Origin: a virus
Lineage: Duplodnaviria; Heunggongvirae; Uroviricota; Caudoviricetes
Virus record (IMG/VR): IMGVR_UViG_2534681651_000007
Coordinates: 1-36,506 of that record
Length of the DNA: 36,506 nt
Strand: one strand, 5' to 3'
Part shown: in pieces, positions 1 through 36,506 of the stretch
Numbering within the stretch: the first letter of the stretch is position 1
How the letters are laid out: every line of letters starts with the position of its first letter
The notes under the pieces: model-generated
What the model saw: only the letters and a program-made list of their open reading frames with translations
What the model was told of the DNA's origin: nothing
Databases searched by the model: none
Program-made: the position numbers and the translations under genes

Positions 1-1284
1 TTACTTCTTCGCCTCTGCAACCACTTTGCTACCCACGCCGCGGTTATTGTATTCCCACATGCGGTTGTAGTTAGTGTCATTCAGATTACGCTGTACTTCG
101 TCGTTATCATCAACGCTGCCGGTGTTACCCGCAAACGGACGATTGGAAATCACCGCATCGGCCCACGGTTTCGCCGTGTTAAAACCTTCGTTGATGGCAC
201 TATCACGGATCACCACCTGACCGTTGGTATTAGCATCAACATCCAGCGAGCGGCCCAGTTGCGCCACGCCATCACCGGAAGCATTGAAACGGCTGTTTAC
301 GGCGAGGAAACCGTAATAGATGTTAGACAGCGTAGCCGGTGCAAACACATACGCTTCTTGCTGAGTACGTGAGTTCACCACGCGGAATTCGGTATTATCG
401 AACACCACTGCGCCGCGACCAGAAACGATATCCACATCCCCTTCAATGTAACTGTTGGTCACCAGAGTACGCGGCTGACGGTTGGTTTCCAGACGGTTTT
501 GCACACCACTGTTGGTGACAAAGAAGGTATTCTGACGACCGAGAATGTTGACGTTATTGATCTGCACTTTGTCGCCATCAGTACGCAGTGCCACCGCCGG
601 ATGGTTACCCGCATCTACGCTATCGCCCAGCGTGTTTTCGATGGTCAGGTTTTGCAGTTGCAGGCCATTGTTTTGTGACCAGAAGACCGCAGAGCAGAGA
701 ACGCCGATACTGTCGCTGCGTTTGCTCTGGCAGCTATCGTACATATACCACGCTGGTTTACCTGGCATATATTTGCCGCGCGGGTTGACGTCGTGACGCC
801 AGTCGGCAGGGCTCATGCCCCCATCAAGGGAAAGCCCAATCTTCACATCAATCGGTTTTTCACCTGTACCGTACAGAGTAATTCCACCCGGAGCGGCAGG
901 GACATACACCGTTCCCTGATACTCACCAGGCATCACGGCAATATACTGGCGCTTGTTGGTGCGCTTGATAATTGCCGCATCTACCGCCGCCTGAATCGTG
1001 GTATGCGTTACACCTTGAGTACCCGCCGGGCCGACAACAAAGTCAGGTTGCGCAGGCAGGGTAATCGGGGAAGGATTCCACGCTGCCGCACCTGGTGTCA
1101 GGGATGCAAAATAGTGTTGAGCATCGAAATTCTGCGCTTCTTTTGCCGACAGAATCGGGCGAGAAGAGGTACCAGGCGCGGTTTGATCAGAAGGACGTTG
1201 ATCGGGCGGTGTTGAGCTACAGGCGGTCAGCGTCACGCCAAAAGCCAATGCCAGCGCCAGACGGGAAACTGAAAATGTGTTCAC
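1..1284 (-). CDS. ybhC: Host outer-membrane lipoprotein YbhC (pectinesterase-like), the gene flanking the lambda attachment site
   Basis: Complete 427-aa ORF with lipoprotein signal (…GVTLTACSS); N-terminus matches recalled E. coli YbhC; lambda att core lies 47 bp beyond its start codon. Confidence 0.85.
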   Translation of the reverse strand: MNTFSVSRLALALAFGVTLTACSSTPPDQRPSDQTAPGTSSRPILSAKEAQNFDAQHYFASLTPGAAAWNPSPITLPAQPDFVVGPAGTQGVTHTTIQAAVDAAIIKRTNKRQYIAVMPGEYQGTVYVPAAPGGITLYGTGEKPIDVKIGLSLDGGMSPADWRHDVNPRGKYMPGKPAWYMYDSCQSKRSDSIGVLCSAVFWSQNNGLQLQNLTIENTLGDSVDAGNHPAVALRTDGDKVQINNVNILGRQNTFFVTNSGVQNRLETNRQPRTLVTNSYIEGDVDIVSGRGAVVFDNTEFRVVNSRTQQEAYVFAPATLSNIYYGFLAVNSRFNASGDGVAQLGRSLDVDANTNGQVVIRDSAINEGFNTAKPWADAVISNRPFAGNTGSVDDNDEVQRNLNDTNYNRMWEYNNRGVGSKVVAEAKK

Positions 1285-3090: not shown

Positions 3091-3546
3091 CTACTGTTCG
3101 GATTTTGAGTTACATTTCTGTGCAAACATCTCCACCCCCTGCGCCCGTACTTCAGCCAGGCATTTGCGGAACTCGGAAACGTACTGCTCAACGCTCATTC
3201 CCCAGCTAAGTGGGCATTCGTTGAATGTTTCGCCTTCGTGTTCTTCATCAGGTAGCTCTTTGGCAAAGAACTCACGCTCAATGGCGTGGAGTGTGTCAGC
3301 AAAACGGCGTAAATTACTCAAACCTACCGCAATGGAGAATTCAGGAGCATCACATCCGACGCCCATCTGCTGATATACGGTGGTTTTGAAGGCCTTAAGC
3401 CCAGCATTTTCAGCCGCCAGAGCCTCGCATTTAGCTTCAAGTTCACCGAATTTACGGACAAGATATTCAGCGTTTGTTTCGTTAACCTTTAAATCACGTG
3501 GTATGCATTTACCTTTCAGAAAACCATCCATCTCAATTAGTGTCAT
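3091..3546 (-). CDS. Hypothetical early-left protein (about 151 aa from the ATG at 3546; the track ORF extends to a GTG at 3573)
   Basis: Long ORF in early-left orientation; the ATG at 3546 overlaps the TGA of the upstream 57-aa ORF (ATGA coupling). No recognised motif. Confidence 0.7.
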
Positions 3547-3716
3547 TTGCTTAATTTCTTCCCACTCCGCCACATCGCATTCAGGTATTTGTTTTGATTC
3601 ACTGATGGAAAAGAATTTCTCTTAAGCAATTCCTCTCTCGATGGTATTGGCTTTACGCGTTGGCGAATAATCATTTCTGCCGGAAGAATGCCGGGATTGT
3701 ATGCAAGCCCTCTCAT
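3543..3716 (-). CDS. Small hypothetical protein (57 aa, [36 protein letters not shown]...)
   Basis: Manually translated; start ATG overlaps stop of the upstream gene (ATGA) and its stop overlaps the ATG of the downstream gene, forming a coupled chain. Basic protein. Confidence 0.45.
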
Positions 3717-4013: not shown

Positions 4014-4307
4014 TCAGTCATTACTGATAGCGCCATAGCGTGAGCGGTAATTACGCAGGCGCGGGTCAATTTCAGGGAAGTGGGTATATGTGGCTTTGCG
4101 GAATGGTCGGATTGATGTCTGGTAAATTCGCTCGCGCTCTTCTTTCTCTGCAAGCCATATGCAGTGGCGAAATTCCTTTTCCTCTTTTGTTTCCTGCGGT
4201 AGCGACATTATCCGGTCGTAGTTTTTTCTGAATTTATCCAGCACCTCCGATACGGAATTGCCGGAACAGCGGCGCACGTCGTCCGCACCATACAGAGGCG
4301 CTGGCAT
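4014..4307 (-). CDS. Hypothetical protein (97 aa)
   Basis: ORF with AGGAG Shine-Dalgarno 6 nt upstream of the ATG; packed between ssb and the next gene. Confidence 0.75.
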   Translation of the reverse strand: MPAPLYGADDVRRCSGNSVSEVLDKFRKNYDRIMSLPQETKEEKEFRHCIWLAEKEERERIYQTSIRPFRKATYTHFPEIDPRLRNYRSRYGAISND

Positions 4308-4836: not shown

Positions 4837-5544
4837 TTATGCCGCCTGTTTTAGTTCGTTAACTCTGATGTTCATTACCTGAACGCATTTAGCCTGCGCA
4901 TCCTCATTGCCAGCCATTAATTGCCAGTCATGCTGATAACGCTCGATGAGTTTTTTCTTGTCAGTTTCTGTTGATGCATAATCGCTGAAGTCTTTCAGGA
5001 TTTGTTCGCAGTCAACCGATGGAGATTTCTGGTTGGTATTTTCTGGTGATGGTTTGTTATCTGATGCTGGGATTGCCCATACCGGCAGCGATGGAGGGAG
5101 CCAGTAAAATCCTGTTCCATCCTTCAGTTTTGCCCTGTGCCACCCCTGCTTTTTATCGAGAGATGTTTGTGCGAAACCTTCCTCAAGGTTATACAGATAC
5201 CGACCGATTCCCCACTGAACGGCAGCGCGCTTCATTGCGCCAGAACGACCGCCTTTGACGGCTTCTACTTGCGTGTTTTCAGCAGCATCCCATTTGGTTA
5301 CCCATTCGGAATCAATCTTGATTGATATGCCGCATTCAACTCCGCCGTTGTTGGGAATATCGCGGTATTCATTGCGCCATCCTGCTTTGCCGCAAACATC
5401 GTCCAGGCGTTTCATGATTGCCCTGTTCGTGACATAAGCCAGCACCATAGCCCACACTTTTCCATCGCGTGTTTTACCGCTTTGCTGTATTCGCCATTCG
5501 ATATCTTCAGGGCTGAACGGTTCATCGAATTTATTCAAATCCAT
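4837..5544 (-). CDS. Rad52/Sak-like single-strand annealing recombination protein
   Basis: 235-aa ORF abutting ssb (stop/start adjacent); N-terminal region (...WAMVLAYVTNRAIMKRLDDVCGKAGWRNEY...) resembles the Rad52/Rad22 annealing-protein family as I recall it; occupies the slot of lambda bet/exo. Confidence 0.6.
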   Translation of the reverse strand: MDLNKFDEPFSPEDIEWRIQQSGKTRDGKVWAMVLAYVTNRAIMKRLDDVCGKAGWRNEYRDIPNNGGVECGISIKIDSEWVTKWDAAENTQVEAVKGGRSGAMKRAAVQWGIGRYLYNLEEGFAQTSLDKKQGWHRAKLKDGTGFYWLPPSLPVWAIPASDNKPSPENTNQKSPSVDCEQILKDFSDYASTETDKKKLIERYQHDWQLMAGNEDAQAKCVQVMNIRVNELKQAA

Positions 5545-5643: not shown

Positions 5644-5802
5644 TTATGGCGATACCAGAGAGCTTTCTGCGTGTACATGCGTCTCTGTAACTTGCTCTCC
5701 TTCACTGTGGTTGCAAGTGACATGAATATCTCCTTCGTTACCGATTAAATCTTTCATCTGACGAATGAATTCTTCGTCTGACCAGTTATCTGTAAAACTC
5801 AT
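5644..5802 (-). CDS. Small hypothetical protein (52 aa, MSFTDNWSDEEFIRQMKDLIGNEGDIHV...)
   Basis: Manually translated ORF whose ATG overlaps the kil stop (ATGA). Confidence 0.4.
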   Translation of the reverse strand: MSFTDNWSDEEFIRQMKDLIGNEGDIHVTCNHSEGEQVTETHVHAESSLVSP

Positions 5803-5951
5803 TTCCTGCGATACCACGGAAGGTTGATAGCTGATTTCATCGCTTTATTTGCTTCAAGCCACATTTTTGAATCACCAATAAATCTGGCTATTACTGCTTT
5901 GTTCTGTGTAGCACGAAGCATCTGGTGATTAATGGCTATTTCATTGCGCAT
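5799..5951 (-). CDS. kil: Kil-like host cell-division inhibitor (50 aa)
   Basis: Manually translated: MRNEIAINHQMLRATQNKAVIARFIGDSKMWLEANKAMK...; the segment QNKAVIARFIGDSKMWLEA resembles recalled lambda Kil (QTKFTIATFIGDEKMFREA); overlaps cIII 3' end as in lambda. Start could instead be the internal Met at 5921. Confidence 0.6.
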   Translation of the reverse strand: MRNEIAINHQMLRATQNKAVIARFIGDSKMWLEANKAMKSAINLPWYRRK

Positions 5952-6070
5952 AACGCCTCCAGTTGTTTCTTTGCTGCTCTGATTAATTGTTTAACTCGGC
6001 GTGATAATTCAGATTCGTGCGGGTAGAAAGCGGACATGACGCCGCTACCCGCGAGCTGAAAGTGCATCAT
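5936..6070 (-). CDS. cIII: CIII-like FtsH (HflB) protease inhibitor (44 aa)
   Basis: MMHFQLAGSGVMSAFYPHESELSRRVKQLIRAAKKQLEAL... parallels recalled lambda CIII (MQYAIAGWPVAGCPSESLLERITRKLRDGWKRLIDIL...); AAGGAG Shine-Dalgarno 6 nt upstream of the ATG at 6070. Confidence 0.7.
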   Translation of the reverse strand: MMHFQLAGSGVMSAFYPHESELSRRVKQLIRAAKKQLEALCAMK

Positions 6071-6153
6071 GGGTAACTCCTTATATTTGATTGCATAACG
6101 AAAATGCCTCTCGTGAAGCATTATTGGTATGCGGTAAAGCCGCGCTCAGGCGG

Positions 6154-6402
6154 CTACTCTATTTCTTCTTCGAATGATTTTATTAGTCGGTCAATAACAT
6201 CATCCGTTTCAATATCATTTCCGTCTGATTGCTTTAATACATCTATTGATTCTGCAGCGGTAAATTCCATCGCTGTGAGAAACTCGACAATTGCACACTC
6301 AACGACATATCGTTCTTCATCTGTACGACATGAGATAAAAGAGCATTTAATTGCTGTTATTACTTTTTGTTTAAGTTCTGCAGGATAATCAGTTTTTATC
6401 AT
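6154..6402 (-). CDS. Acidic 82-aa hypothetical protein (C-terminus ...DGNDIETDDVIDRLIKSFEEEIE)
   Basis: ORF with GGAG Shine-Dalgarno; strongly net-negative composition; sits between cIII and the terminator, a slot that holds ral/ea genes in lambda. Confidence 0.75.
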   Translation of the reverse strand: MIKTDYPAELKQKVITAIKCSFISCRTDEERYVVECAIVEFLTAMEFTAAESIDVLKQSDGNDIETDDVIDRLIKSFEEEIE

Positions 6403-6413
6403 CGTTTACTCCG

Positions 6414-6443
6414 TTAAAAAAACTGCCCTCACATTGGAGGGCA
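6414..6443 (-). terminator. Rho-independent terminator (stem TGCCCTC/GAGGGCA, 6-nt loop, T7 run on the minus strand)
   Basis: Minus strand reads TGCCCTCCAATGTGAGGGCAGTTTTTTT; positionally analogous to lambda tL1. Confidence 0.7.
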
Positions 6444-6586
6444 AAGAAGATTTCCAATAATCAGAACAAGTCGGCTCCTGTTTAGTTACGAGCGACATTG
6501 CTCCGTGTATTCACTCGTTGGAATGAATACACAGTGCTGTATTTATTCTGTTATTTATGCCAAAAGTAAAGGCCGAATATTCGGCT

Positions 6587-6775
6587 TCATTCCTCAAACT
6601 TAATCTCTGCTATTTCCCGGTCACCATCGCAAAACAGGTAAGATTCATGGAACTGGTTTATAAATGAAATTATTCTTTCAATTTTAATTAGCGAATATTT
6701 CTGCTCTAATGGGTTATGCGGCTTAAACGAAGCACAGTCCAGAATCGCAGAATTGTATAAGATCCATTTGTGCAT
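6587..6775 (-). CDS. Possible small protein (62 aa from the ATG at 6775)
   Basis: AT-rich ORF; overlaps the 3' end of the upstream gene by about 50 nt; weak ribosome-binding site. Low confidence. Confidence 0.35.
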   Translation of the reverse strand: MHKWILYNSAILDCASFKPHNPLEQKYSLIKIERIISFINQFHESYLFCDGDREIAEIKFEE

Positions 6776-7580
6776 TTTTACCACCACTAGGTGTTAGTGG
6801 TGCCTCAGATAGTGGAACGCCATATTTAGTAAGCCACAAATGAGGCCACTTCATTTGTATCTCTTTTTCATGCTGACATGCTCTTTCAAAATCAGATGGG
6901 ACGTTATTTTTCATATAAAGCCACAGATCATCATCTCTGTTAGGGCACATCCAGCAAAGCGAGGCAGGTGGTGTAGGAAGACCATAATCCTCGACACATT
7001 GAATTGCCATCTGTTTAGTCATTAGCATTTCAATAAGTGGATAGCGCCTCTGCCACTTGCCAGTTGGGTATTTCGCTCTTCGTTTAGCCTCTTCAATGCT
7101 TATCCCCATCCAACTATCCACTCCTCTTGCTGTAAGATACTTCTCTCCATATCTTTCATTTAAAAATCTCTGAATAACTTCAGTTTTCCACTTTATAGAA
7201 CAAAATGCTGGTTGCTTTCCAGCGCACATTCCTTTTGAATCCCTTCCCTCGTATTCTGTGAAATATCCAGGTAGAGGAACGTCTGGATCAGGCCCATCAA
7301 TGTCGTAGGTAGCAAATCTACTTTTAGGAACAATCAGGTAATCAACACCCATATCTTCACAAATAGGAGCTATATATTTTTTCTGATATTCAAATACATT
7401 ACTTGCCTCACGTTCTGTATCTGACATAACGATAATGTCAGGCTTTGGAAGAACGCCAGCATGTACTAAGCAGATTATTGCGTTACTTTGAGTCCCACCA
7501 CCGGAAGAAATAACATTTAGTCTTTCTGGATTATGCTTGAATTCTCTTCTTGGTATGAATTTACTTGTAAATCCTGGCAT
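6723..7580 (-). CDS. PP-loop / PAPS-reductase-like family protein (285 aa), accessory gene downstream of N
   Basis: N-terminal glycine-rich motif NVISSGGGTQSNAIICL resembles (not canonically) the SGGxDS PP-loop of PAPS reductase/ATP-pyrophosphatase enzymes; several Cys pairs near the C-terminus; AAGGAG Shine-Dalgarno; lower GC than flanks. Family assignment is inference. Confidence 0.5.
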   Translation of the reverse strand: MPGFTSKFIPRREFKHNPERLNVISSGGGTQSNAIICLVHAGVLPKPDIIVMSDTEREASNVFEYQKKYIAPICEDMGVDYLIVPKSRFATYDIDGPDPDVPLPGYFTEYEGRDSKGMCAGKQPAFCSIKWKTEVIQRFLNERYGEKYLTARGVDSWMGISIEEAKRRAKYPTGKWQRRYPLIEMLMTKQMAIQCVEDYGLPTPPASLCWMCPNRDDDLWLYMKNNVPSDFERACQHEKEIQMKWPHLWLTKYGVPLSEAPLTPSGGKNAQMDLIQFCDSGLCFV

Positions 7581-7716: not shown

Positions 7717-8022
7717 TCACCCCTCATACAGTGGTTTGCTGCCTAATTTAATTTTCTGGCGACCAACACAAGTCACACCCATTTCACTCCGTGGCTTGCG
7801 GTAGTAAATACGGTTCTGTTTACGCTCGACTTCTTCTACCTTCTTGCAGCGAAGGCTTCCGAGTGATGCTGCTTTATCTGCCCTGACGCAACCAGAGAAC
7901 TTTAGCGCAATCTTTCGTGCCAATCGCTGTTCTTGCATTGCCTGTTCACGTTGAGCCTGTCTGCGTTCTCTGCGGCGATTTCTGGCGTTATCGTCAGCCA
8001 GATATGTAATGACTACTGTCAT
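7717..8022 (-). CDS. N: N-type transcription antiterminator
   Basis: Arg-rich N-terminus (DDNARNRRRERRQAQREQ); C-terminus YYRKPRSEMGVTCVGRQKIKLGSKPL resembles recalled lambda N (WYSKPGERGITCSGRQKIKGKSIPLI); GGAGG Shine-Dalgarno; downstream of pL/nutL. Confidence 0.88.
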   Translation of the reverse strand: MTVVITYLADDNARNRRRERRQAQREQAMQEQRLARKIALKFSGCVRADKAASLGSLRCKKVEEVERKQNRIYYRKPRSEMGVTCVGRQKIKLGSKPLYEG

Positions 8023-8134
8023 GTTGACCTCCGATGATTGACTTTAGCGGTGACGTGACGGGGGGGGAGGTTAACTCCCTGATGCTGTCGCGCGGCTGCA
8101 CTTCACATCACCCCAAAGCCAACTACTCTTTGGT

Positions 8135-8175
8135 TCCCGCATTTCGGCGGGACAATCCCATCAATGTTAAAGAGC
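8135..8175 (-). promoter_or_regulatory. nutL: nutL: boxA (GGCTCTTTAACA on the minus strand) followed by boxB hairpin (UCCCGC-CGAAAU-GCGGGA)
   Basis: Read directly; the same boxA and boxB core recur downstream of cro. Confidence 0.75.
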
Positions 8176-8221
8176 CTGCCAATCTGTTCCGTTTGGCTAC
8201 CAGCGTCCTGCTGATGACTTA

Positions 8222-8279
8222 AATTTAAGATTTCTTTAATTGATGGTCAAGAGTGTTTTTGAAGAAAACTTAAATTTTA
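8222..8279 (-). promoter_or_regulatory. pL (-35 TTGACC at 8245-8250, -10 TAAATT at 8222-8227, 17-bp spacer) with P22-type OL operators (e.g. ATTTAAGATTTCTTTAAT at 8223-8240)
   Basis: Promoter hexamers with canonical spacing; 18-bp dyad sites of the ATTTAAG-N4-CTTAAAT pattern recalled for P22 c2 operators. Confidence 0.7.
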
Positions 8280-8309: not shown

Positions 8310-8341
8310 AAAGGAAAGAAAAAAGGGGCGAATGCCCCTTA
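8310..8341 (-). terminator. Terminator after the repressor gene (stem GGGGC/GCCCC, loop GAAT/ATTC, T6 on the minus strand)
   Basis: Minus strand reads AAGGGGCATTCGCCCCTTTTTT; hairpin includes the repressor stop codon. Confidence 0.6.
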
Positions 8342-8989
8342 TGGAAGGTTTGCTATTTTTGCATCGACAACTACACCGATGATTTTGCAGTTCCCGTTGA
8401 TCTCAATCATCGGATATTGTGGGTTAAGTGGTTTTAGAAACCTTCTGCCAGCATCAATAACTAACTTCTTGAAAGTTGCCTCGTTTTCTCCTTCGAGCTT
8501 TGCCACTACCAGCTTCCCATTACGAGGTTCTACTTCAGGATCGACTAGTATTATCATCCCTTCCGGGATGCTAAGACCGGCTGGAGCCGTCATCGAATCA
8601 CCCTTTACGTCCAGCCAAAACGAATCTTCTGAACAATCTACGGTTGTATCGTACCAGTTATCTATTGCACGCTTATGATATGGCTCTACAGCTTCCATCC
8701 AACATCCTGCGCTTACCCAACTAATTAGAGGATACGAACCTCTTGGATCATGCCTGCTGTGATAGGCAATGTTTGAAAGACTATCTTCTCCTTTCAACAA
8801 GTAATCAGGGGAGCACTGCAAAGCCTTGGCTAAGGCCAATAGGTTTTCGCCATTGGGCTCAGTTTCAGAACGCTCCCATTGGGAAATAGCAACATTAGAC
8901 ACGCCAACCATCTTGCCAAGGGCAGCCTGCCTAATTTTGAGTTCTTTTCTGCGAGCGCGAATACGCTCACCCATCAGTTGTGTATTCAT
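8339..8989 (-). CDS. c2: Prophage repressor, P22 C2 type (LexA-like autocleaving CI family)
   Basis: 216-aa ORF MNTQLMGERIRARRKELKIRQAALGKMVGVSNVAISQWERSETEPNGENLLALAKALQCSPDYLL... matching recalled P22 c2; HTH N-domain and S24-like C-domain; divergent from cro. Confidence 0.95.
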   Translation of the reverse strand: MNTQLMGERIRARRKELKIRQAALGKMVGVSNVAISQWERSETEPNGENLLALAKALQCSPDYLLKGEDSLSNIAYHSRHDPRGSYPLISWVSAGCWMEAVEPYHKRAIDNWYDTTVDCSEDSFWLDVKGDSMTAPAGLSIPEGMIILVDPEVEPRNGKLVVAKLEGENEATFKKLVIDAGRRFLKPLNPQYPMIEINGNCKIIGVVVDAKIANLP

Positions 8990-33477: not shown

Positions 33478-33714
33478 GTACAAATCCTTCAGCGTATCAA
33501 ACACCATCTTCTTAACAAGTTCGGACTGCTCATCAGCGATGCGTTCTGCATCGTCTCGATAGCCTGAAATTTTGGATGGCTTTGATACAGCATCAGTAAC
33601 TATCTGAACTAATTCTGAATTAAGAGAGCGGCCATTGGATTTGGCTCGCTGTTTTAGTTTTTCCTTTAATTCGTAAGGTAGCCGCAGATTAAATTGCGGG
33701 TCATCTCTTCCCAT
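33463..33714 (-). CDS. mnt: Mnt repressor (ribbon-helix-helix, P22 immI type)
   Basis: 83-aa ORF MGRDDPQFNLRLPYELKEKLKQRAKSNGRSLNSELVQIVTDAVSKPSKISGYRDDAERIADEQSELVKKMVFDTLKDLYKKPT, close to recalled P22 Mnt. Confidence 0.9.
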   Translation of the reverse strand: MGRDDPQFNLRLPYELKEKLKQRAKSNGRSLNSELVQIVTDAVSKPSKISGYRDDAERIADEQSELVKKMVFDTLKDLYKKPT

Positions 33715-33777
33715 TCTTGATGCCTCGCTTTTGTGAGTGGATCGGCATCTTATTATCTGCTGGTTGCATCCTCAATA

Positions 33778-33792
33778 AGACCACTGTGGTCT
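33778..33792. promoter_or_regulatory. Candidate Mnt operator: perfect 15-bp palindrome AGACCACTGTGGTCT between mnt and the tailspike gene
   Basis: Palindrome read directly; half-site resembles the P22 Omnt dyad (GGTCCAC-G-GTGGACC as recalled). Confidence 0.55.
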
Positions 33793-33860
33793 CTTTATTT
33801 GATTAATAATGCATCACTGCGGCAATGCTGCGGCGATTCCTTGTATCTGGAGCAAATTAA

Positions 33861-36506
33861 ATGACAGACATTACAGCCAATGTTGTAGTGAGTATGCCTT
33901 CGCAACTCTTCACTATGGCGCGTTCTTTTAAAGCGGTTGCCAATGGCAAAATTTATATCGGTAAAATTGACACTGACCCTGTAAATCCTGAAAACCAGAT
34001 TCAGGTTTATGTAGAGAACGAAGATGGCTCTCATGCTCCTGTTTCGCAACCAATCATCATTAACGCTGCTGGATATCCGGTATATAACGGACAGATTGCC
34101 AAGTTCGTAACTGTGCAAGGCCATTCTATGGCTGTTTATGATGCGTATGGTGCACAGCAGTTCTATTTTCCTAATGTGCTGAAGTATGACCCGGATCAGT
34201 TTAAACAAAAAGTATTATCAAATGATATGCTAAATATGTCTCCTCTTTATTTTGGAGCTAAGGGGGATGGGATTAGCGATGATACTGAAGCATTTGTCGC
34301 GTTGGAAATGGATATAAAAAATAGGGTTATTGATTTAAGTGGAAGAGCATTTTTTGTTACTAAAAGTTTTATTAAAAATAGCTATATAAATGGTTCTTTT
34401 ATTCGTGATAGCAGTAAACGAATTGCGATTGGTGATCTTAAAGTAAGAGATAAAAGAGAGCCATTGATATTTTCCGGAATGCCAAAAGTATATAACACCA
34501 GACACACGTTGCGCAGAACTGAAGGTGCGGGTGGTTTATATGCGGTCATTCAGGGGTGTTGTTATGATGAAATTAACGACAAGATTTTTACTTTATCATC
34601 TACCACAGCATACGGTTATTGCATTAATGCCTTTGACGTGACGAATTCTGGTGAACTAGGAAGATACGACAGAACTCGTTCTACTGAACTTGGGCATCAG
34701 GGGCTTGGATTGCATCATAATCCTGATGGTACTGTCGTGCTGTGGACATCGAAGCCTTATGGAACTGATGCCGCCAATCAATGTATTTCGATGGAAAATA
34801 TATTGAGTTACACAGGGACAACTAACGGAGTATCTGAAGGTTTTATCACCTGGAAGTTGTTCCCCTATGATGGAATGAGCGCAAGCTCTACTCCAACTGT
34901 ATCAAGTTGTGAAAACTATCTCCTTGCCAAGAAAATTTCATCGGATGGAATTACCTGCACGGTTCGTGTTTTCGACATAGTCAGCATGTGGAATAACAGA
35001 GCTCATAAAACTGATTATAGTGATGATTATTTAGTTGAGTTTAGCTATCAAAAACCATCACAAGAAGCATTTACCCAATCAATTGCTTGCGATGGGGCAT
35101 ACATTTACATACTTGAGTCACATATGTATGTTGGCATGACTAATTATATTTACGTATTTGACTTAACAGGCAGGTTTATTGAGCGAGTAGATATTTCAAC
35201 TGTTGGTGATGATGAAGCAAAATCTGATAGTACAGGAACTCCTGTTTATAAAGAGCCTGAGTCCCTAACAGTAATTAGAACGGAGAGTGGGTATGTTTTA
35301 ACGCTGGGGATATGCACATATAAAGGAGTTGCTGAGAACGGGAAAAATGTATATCTGTTTGATATAGGCAGGTCTGGTTCGGTAGTGCAAAGCAAAGCAA
35401 GCCGTTCTGTATCCAGTAATACTGGTCTTCATAGTTCTGGCTCCCCGGAGTTCAAATATGGAGTAAGGGAGTACAATGATACTTTTCACTGGACAGTTTG
35501 GCCAACAAGAAAGGGTATTCAAACTAACCGGGATAACCCTATATTGTTCCTTGATGGCGGAATTACTGGTGGAATGCAGTTAGCTTCAAATGGTACGGAA
35601 GGGATGAGCAACTCATGGGTTTCTCGGCATCAGTCAGATACCGCAGAAGGACCAAGAGCAATAATGTATAAATCTCGTTCTGGTGTTGTATCAACTGATA
35701 ATTTTGGAGCCCTGCAGACAGGGGATGTATTGGGTACTCATGTATGGGCCGGTGATACGGGTAGTAAGGCTGTGCAATGCGCAAGCATTAAATGCGTCAC
35801 AAGAGGCAATCCTTCCGGAGAAAATATCCCAGTTGCTTTTTACTTTGGAACTATGGGAGAGAGTGACGGCTTGCGTGACAGATGGGTATTAACAGAATTA
35901 GGTCATTTTCGACCATCAGGTTCAAATCTCTATGATATTGGTACACAGTCGAATACTGTCAGAAATCTGTACATCAATAATAGTCCAATTGTAACCAGCG
36001 ACAGAAATTACAAGCAGGATGAAACTTCATTATCTGATGCAGAACTGCGGGTTGGAATGGCTATTTACCCGCTGATAAAAAAATTCAGAATGAAGGATGC
36101 TGTAAAAGAAAAAGGCTTATTAGCGCGTGAGCATATCGGTGTAATTGCGCAAGATATACAATCCATCTTTGCATCGGCAGGGCTTGATGCATTTTCTTAT
36201 GGGGTTCTTTGTTATGAAGAGTGGAATGACGAGTTCGAGAAAGTCTATGCAACAAGAAATGTGACCAGGAAAATTTTGGTTGATGAAGAGTCTGGTCAAT
36301 ATGATGAAATCATAGAGGAAGAAGAGTATGAAACGGGTGAGGTAAGGCTACTTGTAGAATCAGGAAGGAAATTATCAGTGCGCTATGACGAGTTAATGTT
36401 TCTGGCAATGAGCGCACTATATCATCGCCATGAACAGGATATTGCCAATATCACATCAAAGATTAATGATCTGGAAAGATTATTAAAATTAACACTAAAT
36501 GGTTGA
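33861..36506 (+). CDS. Tailspike: P22 gp9-like N-terminal head-binding domain, beta-helix (pectin-lyase-like) receptor domain, C-terminal intramolecular-chaperone (self-cleaving) domain
   Basis: N-terminal about 120 aa ([43 protein letters not shown]...) nearly identical to recalled P22 gp9; motif [16 protein letters not shown] typical of beta-helix glycosidases; near the C-terminus TSDRNYK (Ser and Lys five residues apart) then LSDAELR...IYPLIK, resembling the S74-type chaperone domain. Confidence 0.88.

What the first reader, a model, noticed from the sequence alone, without database searches (positions are those of the whole stretch)
6154..6402. Strongly acidic 82-aa protein in the ral/ea slot
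Net charge is heavily negative, with a terminal stretch DGNDIETDDVIDRLIKSFEEEIE. Small acidic early proteins are classic DNA mimics that inhibit restriction or other DNA-binding defence proteins. Its own Shine-Dalgarno sits just after the tL1-like terminator, so expression depends on N antitermination.
Basis: inference. Interest (0 to 1): 0.5.

Follow-up and report, generated by a model that had tools for sequence, protein, structure and literature searches.

The report
Acidic early phage protein, function unknown
This is a real, conserved, very acidic 82-residue early gene of a lambda-like E. coli phage whose database label "anti-restriction protein" has no homology, fold or experimental support, so its target is still unknown.

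Summary
Window 6154-6402 (minus strand) encodes an 82-aa protein with pI 4.27 and net charge -11. GGAG-N6-ATG follows three bases after an intrinsic terminator.

Two corrections apply. The terminator is lambda tL2a, not tL1, and it forms the 3' end of the Hfq-dependent sRNA PreS. The gene sits in the ea10 slot, not the ral slot, as a 259-bp cassette (SD plus ORF) that exactly replaces ea10.

The protein is identical to HK446 gp36. It belongs to a small family (32 clusters among 1.84 billion proteins, all acidic) found in Gammaproteobacteria and their phages. AlphaFold2 gives a confident four-helix bundle (pLDDT 88). There is no homology or specific fold match to Ral, Ocr, Arn, colicin immunity proteins or any Pfam family.

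The labels "anti-restriction protein" and "ral" are unsupported. This exact protein was orf194 in a published 200-gene screen; ardA, ral and ocr were the EcoKI hits noted in all three replicates, and orf194 is never mentioned. An HK446 library screen for P2 OLD inhibitors recovered gp27, not gp36.

Best guess (about 0.4): an N-dependent delayed-early protein that binds and blocks a basic host or rival-element protein. Modest interest.

The parts
6154..6402 (-). ORF82 (identical to HK446 gp36 and to orf194 of Silas et al.): 82-aa acidic protein, predicted four-helix bundle (H8-23, H28-44, H49-58, H64-81)
6409..6412 (-). Shine-Dalgarno GGAG, 6 nt upstream of the ATG
   Evidence: sequence read
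6416..6444 (-). Intrinsic terminator: stem-loop 6444..6423 plus T7 6422..6416. Homologue of lambda tL2a.
   Evidence: (Sf6 record: 'homology to phage lambda; tL2A')
6416..6503 (-). Probable PreS (LPR1) Hfq-dependent sRNA homologue. The 5' end is approximate and assumes the ~88-nt lambda species. Its terminator is the one directly upstream of ORF82.
   Evidence: Window 6415-6574 is 96% identical to lambda 33,924-34,082. Paper 10.1101/2024.10.31.621285. Fold z = -4.0. Not in Rfam.
6415..6589 (.). Conserved boundary block (bsq4 of Sf6) shared by more than 300 lambdoid phage records; right-hand junction of the cassette
6156..6414 (-). Cassette-specific DNA: only the SD and ORF82. Replaced by ea10 in lambda and mEpX2, by a 322-aa gene in Sf6, and absent in mEpX1.
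6103..6122 (-). Weak terminator-like hairpin between ORF82 and cIII, lying in the conserved left flank
5936..6121 (-). cIII, the next gene on the same transcript (then kil, the gp33-like gene, Erf/Rad52, SSB-like and Abc2)
7717..8022 (-). N-like antiterminator with an arginine-rich N-terminus
   Evidence: PF25694, below threshold
8130..8250 (-). pL-like promoter (TTGACC-17-TAAATT, 8250..8222) and nutL-like boxA (GCTCTTTAAC) plus boxB-like hairpin (CCCGC-CGAAAT-GCGGG)
   Evidence: boxA/boxB assignment by eye

Best explanation
ORF82 is a stand-alone accessory cassette in the delayed-early leftward (pL) operon of a lambdoid E. coli phage. Transcripts from pL either stop at the tL2a-like terminator, giving the PreS sRNA 3' end, or are carried through it by N. 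Only the read-through RNA contains the ORF82 ribosome-binding site, which begins three bases after the terminator's T-run. The protein is therefore made early in lytic growth or induction and not from the repressed prophage.

The product is a small, soluble, strongly acidic four-helix bundle with no catalytic motifs. The most likely mode of action is stoichiometric binding to, and blocking of, a basic surface on a host or rival-element protein. That surface is probably nucleic-acid-binding, and the protein would be a host-takeover or counter-defence inhibitor.

The target is not identified. On published evidence it is not EcoKI, and the protein is not the inhibitor of P2 OLD.

Shown: gene reality, expression signals, cassette structure, family, fold, acidity. 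Inferred: inhibitor-by-binding function and N dependence.
For: - Gene and signals.
- N/nutL/pL context.
- Terminator is tL2a and the PreS 3' end.
- Exact cassette limits, with alternation against ea10, a 322-aa gene or nothing.
- Narrow family of stand-alone proteins of 42-100 aa, 32 clusters at 50% identity among 1.84 billion.
- Acidity is conserved in every intact member (pI 4.05-4.4, net -7 to -20).
- Confident four-helix model, pLDDT 88.3, pTM 0.76.
- Same fold in the Skatevirus-type homologue and in a paralogue.
- Always in early or accessory positions. Examples: after N in another lambdoid prophage; first gene of an early-left operon next to RecT; before cIII-RecT-YqaJ; first gene of a ParB-like/RusA operon; small islands between tail genes; after DNA polymerase in a contig with a primase-helicase and a family-A DNA polymerase.
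- No constant neighbour, so it acts alone.
- Silas et al. chose it as an accessory-region gene.
- The allelic alternative, lambda Ea10, is unrelated in sequence but equally acidic (pI 4.28, net -14).
- Only synonymous differences among phage copies.
Against: - No target is known.
- The exact protein gave no reported phenotype (neither host-sensitising nor conditionally lethal) in about 20 E. coli hosts crossed with T2-T7, P1 and lambda.
- It was not recovered in an HK446 genomic-library screen for OLD inhibitors.
- The invariant residues (A17, G61, D67, near-invariant E40) could be purely structural, for example a helix N-cap and a turn, rather than an interaction site.
- Acidity alone does not establish an inhibitor.
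Confidence: 0.4

Rival explanations
1. One reading: an Ocr/ArdA-like DNA mimic that inhibits type I restriction-modification enzymes.
For: - Charge density (-0.134 per residue) lies between Arn (-0.098) and Ocr (-0.239).
- Early expression in a region that holds ral in lambda.
- Public labels read 'anti-restriction protein' (PHROG 14587) and 'antirestriction protein ral' (ECP1).
- In two Skatevirus-type phages a paralogue occupies the slot that holds a cytosine methyltransferase in relatives.
Against: - No homology to Ocr or Ral and no Ral Pfam hit even at E = 10.
- The exact protein was in the pooled MG1655 plus unmodified lambda screen. The notes for all three replicates name ardA, ral and ocr as the hits, and the protein is named nowhere in the paper.
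- The labels appear to be positional or propagated, because every other source calls it hypothetical.
- The paralogue/methyltransferase swap is seen in only two phages.
Confidence: 0.07
2. A modulator of host DNA-end metabolism, functionally like lambda Gam or T7 gp5.9. It would be an acidic protein that blocks RecBCD, another host nuclease or SSB to protect the phage recombination and replication intermediates made by the genes downstream.
For: - It recurs immediately upstream of recombination modules: Erf/Rad52 plus Abc2 here, RecT, cIII-RecT-YqaJ, Rad52, and ParB-like plus RusA.
- One member sits directly after a family-A DNA polymerase. From my own knowledge, T7 keeps gp5.5-5.9 in that position.
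- The July 2026 OLD preprint describes this region as a hotspot for RecBCD manipulators and the defences that sense them.
Against: - The window and HK446 already carry Abc2, and gp33 is proposed to be a RecBCD manipulator.
- Several family members sit far from any recombination gene, in islands between tail genes.
- No homology to Gam or any known nuclease inhibitor was detected in the Pfam or PDB profile searches.
- gp36 was not part of the HK446 'Rec locus' shown to trigger OLD.
Confidence: 0.17
3. A phage-internal or host-physiology regulator, like its neighbours cIII and kil. It would tune the lysis-lysogeny decision, proteolysis, cell division or transcription, not defence.
For: It is co-transcribed with cIII and kil. 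The slot is dispensable and variable, as for other lambda 'ea' genes. No counter-defence phenotype appeared in the published screen.
Against: Family members also occur in apparently virulent 45-kb siphoviruses and next to replication genes, where lysogeny control is irrelevant. There is no DNA-binding motif.
Confidence: 0.15
4. A colicin-immunity-like nuclease inhibitor: a homologue of Im7/Im9 that neutralises an HNH DNase.
For: Single-sequence phmmer gave Im7 as the top PDB hit (E 0.23). There is a local match, TDDV(I/L)D.L(I/L)..F, in which the family-invariant D67 and D71 align with Im7 helix II. Size, acidity and helix count are similar.
Against: - The match covers helices 3-4 of ORF82 but helices I-II of Im7, so it is not colinear with the fold.
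- hhalign probability is 2.5%.
- With the family profile Im7 no longer appears even at E = 10.
Confidence: 0.03

Closest known systems
HK446 gp36 (AFH20664.1), which is orf194/UDP0194 of Silas et al. 2023; also in Kapi1 and ECP1; PHROG 14587
   Same: 100% identical protein in the same position between the tL2a block and cIII
   Different: Nothing differs in the protein. In HK446 the upstream neighbour is a reverse-oriented HK620p16-like gene, whereas here it is a PAPS-reductase-like gene. No function has been reported.
Lambda Ea10 (PHROG 646)
   Same: Occupies exactly the same cassette site, bounded by the tL2a T-run and the cIII leader. Also strongly acidic (pI 4.28, net -14), early and N-dependent, with unknown function.
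   Different: 122 aa and unrelated in sequence (hhalign probability 0.16%); a different PHROG.
Ocr (T7 gp0.3), ArdA and Arn: acidic DNA-mimic anti-restriction proteins
   Same: Small, early, very acidic, non-enzymatic.
   Different: No sequence or fold relationship. Lower charge density than Ocr. Not a hit where Ocr and ArdA were hits in the EcoKI screen.
Lambda Ral / Rac Lar (PF11058)
   Same: Same operon and general region. One GenBank record (ECP1) calls ORF82 'ral'.
   Different: Ral is basic (pI 8.78), cysteine-rich and 66 aa. There is no homology. Ral lies upstream of tL2a, ORF82 downstream.
Colicin E7/E9 immunity proteins (Im7/Im9)
   Same: About 85 aa, acidic, four helices; a local motif similarity.
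   Different: Not colinear, not supported by the profile or fold search.
Four-helix cap of B12-binding domains (AerR 7te2, CarH 5c8d)
   Different: 6% identity; part of larger cofactor-binding proteins; no Pfam B12-binding_2 hit. Treated as generic topology.

Membership tests
Ral/Lar restriction alleviation (PF11058) | Sequence match to the Ral family profile | tested here: not met
   No PF11058 hit at E up to 10. hhalign of the family profile against lambda Ral gives probability 0.10%.
Ral/Lar restriction alleviation (PF11058) | Small basic cysteine-rich protein located between N and tL2a | tested here: not met
   Ral has pI 8.78 against 4.27 for ORF82. ORF82 lies downstream of tL2a.
Ocr/ArdA-type DNA mimics | Sequence or fold similarity to a known DNA mimic | tested here: not met
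Ocr/ArdA-type DNA mimics | High density of surface carboxylates | tested here: inconclusive
   Net charge per residue is -0.134, between Arn (-0.098) and Ocr (-0.239).
Ocr/ArdA-type DNA mimics | Inhibition of type I R-M in vivo | not testable with these tools
   Published pooled screen containing this exact protein: in MG1655 plus unmodified lambda, the notes for all three replicates name ardA, ral and ocr as the hits, and UDP194 is never noted. This is evidence against.
PHROG 14587 ('anti-restriction protein') | Full-length match to the PHROG profile | tested here: met
   E 2.2e-48 over 1-82 of 82. The SeSz-2 paralogue also matches, E 8e-8. The functional label itself has no traceable experimental basis.
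Colicin DNase immunity proteins (Im7/Im9) | Colinear sequence and fold match | tested here: not met
Oad2 (P2 OLD inhibitor, HK446 gp27) | Identity with the gene recovered in the OLD-inhibitor screen | tested here: not met
   ORF82 is HK446_036. Oad2 is HK446_027, 175 aa and EaE-related.
Lambda Ea10 (PHROG 646) | Sequence homology | tested here: not met
   hhalign probability 0.16%. The two are the same locus only.
PreS/LPR1 sRNA with tL2a terminator (the upstream element) | Near-identity to the lambda ral-ea10 intergenic sequence ending in a GC hairpin plus U-run | tested here: met
   96% identity over 160 nt to lambda 33,924-34,082. Terminator. Stable fold, z -4.0. Identity of the lambda element and the Sf6 annotation. 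Expression in this phage was not tested.

The most novel reading that the evidence does not exclude
ORF82 and the unrelated but equally acidic Ea10 are interchangeable decoys. Both would neutralise the same still-unidentified host or prophage sensor or defence that is provoked by the delayed-early recombination and RecBCD-manipulating genes just downstream. This would define a new counter-defence family with a new fold and give lambda ea10 a function at last.
Probability: 0.15. Interest if true: 0.6.

Novelty: new member of a known kind. Interest (0 to 1): 0.3.

Why it matters
- The protein occurs on at least 1000 E. coli contigs and in 58 of 5426 complete E. coli genomes. In RefSeq and Pharokka-style annotations it carries the label "anti-restriction protein", which this analysis could not trace to any homology, fold or experiment. 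Correcting that label avoids false counts of anti-defence genes.
- The exact allelic exchange with ea10 puts two unrelated acidic proteins at one site directly behind the PreS sRNA terminator. That gives a simple, testable handle on an old unknown of lambda biology, the function of ea10.
- If a target is found, it would add a new small-inhibitor family.

Tried and rejected
- Pfam, NCBIfam and PADLOC scans of ORF82 gave nothing. Pfam on all 26 family members also gave nothing.
- The word-indexed homologue search found only near-identical copies. Distant members needed a second seed and the exhaustive profile search.
- The afdb50 fold library was not available.
- The search for related loci with the family alignment failed because no stretch was conserved enough.
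- The Oad2/OLD lead from the HK446 literature was rejected: Oad2 is gp27, while ORF82 is gp36.
- The paralogue/methyltransferase swap, a possible hint of anti-restriction function, occurs in only two phages.
- No constant neighbouring partner gene was found.
- Rfam has no family for the upstream sRNA.
- An exact or 1-mismatch search for lambda boxA was at chance level. nutL was instead recognised by eye as a P22/phi21-type boxA plus a hairpin.
- The plus-strand shadow ORF 6104-6388 (94 aa) was disregarded. Only the minus-strand frame was searched, and it alone accounts for the conservation (homologues, and all nucleotide differences synonymous).

Full report
**1. What is there**

Window 6154-6402 holds an ATG-initiated ORF of 82 codons on the minus strand. 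The product is MIKTDYPAELKQKVITAIKCSFISCRTDEERYVVECAIVEFLTAMEFTAAESIDVLKQSDGNDIETDDVIDRLIKSFEEEIE. It has 20 D+E against 9 K+R, net charge -11 and pI 4.27. That makes it the second most acidic of the 87 ORFs of at least 60 aa in all six frames.

On the minus strand an 8-bp hairpin (6444..6423, five G-C pairs) is followed by seven T (6422..6416). Three bases later comes GGAG (6412..6409), then six bases, then the ATG.

**2. It is a real gene**

- The protein is 100% identical in phages HK446, Kapi1 and ECP1.
- The same sequence occurs on at least 1000 E. coli contigs.
- The DNA is present in 58 of 5426 complete E. coli genomes, always chromosomal.
- The three nucleotide differences from HK446 and the two from ECP1 are all synonymous.

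An exhaustive profile search of 1.84 billion representative proteins found only 32 clusters, all 42-100 aa. Named members come from Escherichia, Klebsiella, Salmonella, Pantoea and Aeromonas/Shewanella or their phages.

Every intact member is acidic, with pI 4.05-4.4 and net charge -7 to -20. A17, G61 and D67 are invariant, E40 is nearly so, and C25, F41, I70 and D71 are common.

AlphaFold2 with a 17-sequence alignment gives a confident four-helix bundle: mean pLDDT 88.3, pTM 0.76, helices 8-23, 28-44, 49-58 and 64-81.

**3. Genomic setting and expression**

The window is a lambdoid phage. On the minus strand the order is:
- cI-like repressor (8339-8989)
- pL-like promoter (8250..8222)
- a P22/phi21-type boxA (GCTCTTTAAC) with a boxB-like hairpin (about 8170-8130)
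- an N-like protein with an arginine-rich N-terminus (7717-8022)
- a 43-aa ORF
- a 285-aa PAPS-reductase-like protein (6723-7580)
- a 320-nt non-coding stretch
- ORF82
- cIII (5936-6121) and kil (5799-5951)
- a gp33-like gene, Erf/Rad52 (4837-5544), an SSB-like gene, and Abc2 (4014-4307)

The non-coding stretch 6415-6574 is 96% identical to lambda 33,924-34,082, the ral-ea10 intergenic region. It is conserved in more than 300 lambdoid phage records. The Sf6 record annotates it as boundary sequence bsq4, with the terminator labelled "homology to phage lambda; tL2A".

A 2024 preprint (10.1101/2024.10.31.621285) shows that in lambda this segment encodes LPR1/PreS. PreS is an Hfq-dependent sRNA of about 88 nt that raises dnaN translation, and its 3' end is tL2a. 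The corresponding window segment folds stably, with z = -4.0. Rfam has no model for it.

The conclusion still stands: the ORF82 ribosome-binding site is present only on RNA that reads through this terminator. No promoter-like site lies on the minus strand between it and the preceding gene. N dependence is inferred, not shown.

**4. It is a cassette in the ea10 slot**

Against mEpX2, which has Ea10 here, homology runs through 5900-6155 (99.6%) and resumes at 6415-6589 (93.7%). Only 6156-6414 is specific, and that is the SD plus ORF82.

Lambda shares the same right junction. mEpX1 has the two flanks almost abutting, so its slot is empty. Sf6 carries a 322-aa gene there.

Lambda Ea10 is unrelated in sequence (hhalign probability 0.16%) but is likewise strongly acidic (pI 4.28, net -14).

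**5. Contexts of distant relatives**

- P0025 (46% identity) lies two genes after N in another lambdoid prophage, upstream of a Rad52-type recombinase.
- P0024 is the first gene of an early-left operon opposite an HTH gene, followed by RecT and an HNH-like protein.
- P0033 precedes cIII, RecT and YqaJ.
- In Skatevirus-type 45-kb phages the homologue (about 41% identity) opens an operon with a ParB-like protein and RusA.
- P0045 follows a primase-helicase and a family-A DNA polymerase.
- P0036 and P0043 sit in small forward-strand islands among structural or tail genes.

Two phages carry two paralogues each: SeSz-2 has gp63 and gp60, and one 47.8-kb contig has P0024 and P0036.

No neighbouring gene is constant. 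The common theme is an early or accessory position, often but not always beside recombination genes.

**6. Comparison with known families**

Pfam, NCBIfam and PADLOC give nothing. The only family hit is PHROG 14587, annotated "anti-restriction protein". ECP1's GenBank record calls the gene "antirestriction protein ral". All other sources call it hypothetical.

- Ral is excluded: no PF11058 hit, hhalign probability 0.1%, opposite charge, and a different side of tL2a.
- Ocr is excluded by sequence.
- Foldseek against the PDB has no hit below E 0.7.
- BFVD returns only the family's own members.
- A weak phmmer hit to Im7 reflects a local motif. It is not colinear and disappears with the family profile.

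I infer that the "anti-restriction" label is positional or propagated rather than evidence-based.

**7. Published experiments on this exact protein**

(a) Silas et al. 2023 (bioRxiv 10.1101/2023.04.06.535777) list AFH20664.1 of HK446 as UDP0194, one of 200 accessory genes screened in pools. In the MG1655 plus C990-grown lambda arm, which is an EcoKI restriction test, the notes for all three replicates name ardA, ral and ocr as the hits. UDP194/orf194 appears neither in those notes nor in the main text. It is also absent from the set of genes given AlphaFold models and from the 2025 follow-up paper or its supplements. The screen covered about 20 ECOR hosts with T2-T7 and P1.

(b) A July 2026 preprint on P2 OLD (10.64898/2026.07.10.737580) screened a random HK446 genomic library for OLD inhibitors and recovered gp27 (Oad2). 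It identified gp33 as the OLD trigger. ORF82 is HK446_036.

These are negative results with limits. The assays were pooled, the defence repertoires were restricted and the phages were heterologous. Even so, they count directly against EcoKI inhibition.

**8. Most likely mechanism**

I commit to the following, at about 0.4. ORF82 is a delayed-early, N-dependent accessory protein. It acts by stoichiometric binding to a basic surface on a host or rival-element protein, probably a nucleic-acid-binding one. That would make it a host-takeover or counter-defence inhibitor with an unknown target.

Rivals:
- a modulator of DNA-end metabolism like Gam or gp5.9, suggested by the frequent recombination neighbours but made partly redundant by Abc2 and gp33 (0.17);
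- a regulator of phage or host physiology, like cIII and kil (0.15);
- a type I R-M DNA mimic (0.07);
- an Im7-like nuclease inhibitor (0.03).

**9. Novelty and interest**

The gene is catalogued but uncharacterised. If it is an inhibitor, it is a new family within a familiar kind of small acidic early phage protein.

The useful new points are:
- the correction of an unsupported database label;
- the exact allelism with the equally acidic ea10;
- the placement immediately behind the PreS/tL2a terminator.

Interest is modest at 0.3. The most novel reading, a shared target with Ea10 that defines a new counter-defence family, has a probability of about 0.15.

Noticed in passing
window 6416-6503 (-), within conserved block 6415-6589: Homologue of the lambda Hfq-dependent sRNA PreS/LPR1, ending at the tL2a terminator. 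It is 96% identical to lambda and appears identical through the sRNA body apart from the terminator base and loop. It is not represented in Rfam 15.
   Followed up: partly
window 6723-7580 (-): A 285-aa PAPS-reductase-like protein (PHROG 424, E 5e-35; no Pfam hit) with an SGGxxS PP-loop-like motif and a C-terminal CWMCP motif. It occupies the position where lambda has ral/orf28. It may be a DNA-modification or other accessory function.
   Followed up: no
window 5647-5802 (-): Homologue (86.5% identity over 52 aa) of HK446/HK75 gp33, which a 2026 preprint reports as the trigger of the P2 OLD abortive-infection tRNase. PHROG labels it 'recombinase'.
   Followed up: partly
window 3391-3555 (-), inside ORF 3091-3573: The N-terminal 76 aa are 64% identical to HK446 gp27 (Oad2, the OLD inhibitor), and the rest diverges. 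The preprint notes that a 54%-identical HK75 homologue does not inhibit OLD, so this copy may or may not be active.
   Followed up: no
window 4014-4307 (-): Full-length P22-type Abc2 anti-RecBCD protein (PF11043, E 9e-63), downstream of Erf/Rad52 and an SSB-like gene.
   Followed up: partly
L004 (lambda) 837-1205 (-), which is lambda 33,536-33,904: Lambda Ea10, the allelic alternative to ORF82, is itself strongly acidic (pI 4.28, net -14) and still has no known function.
   Followed up: partly
L002 (SeSz-2) 5001-5261 and 6266-6490; L007 and L018 (same 47.8-kb contig): Two phages each carry two diverged paralogues of the family at separate positions. In Bas77 and relatives the second position holds a cytosine-specific DNA methyltransferase instead.
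   Followed up: partly
window 8130-8250 (-): pL-like promoter plus a P22/phi21-type boxA (GCTCTTTAAC) and a boxB-like hairpin. The lambda boxA consensus search itself was at chance level.
   Followed up: partly
L018 12001-12225 (-): The 47.8-kb phage contig that carries two family members also encodes a Lar/Ral-type restriction alleviation protein (PF14354) elsewhere. The acidic family and Ral-type genes therefore co-exist and do not substitute for each other.
   Followed up: no
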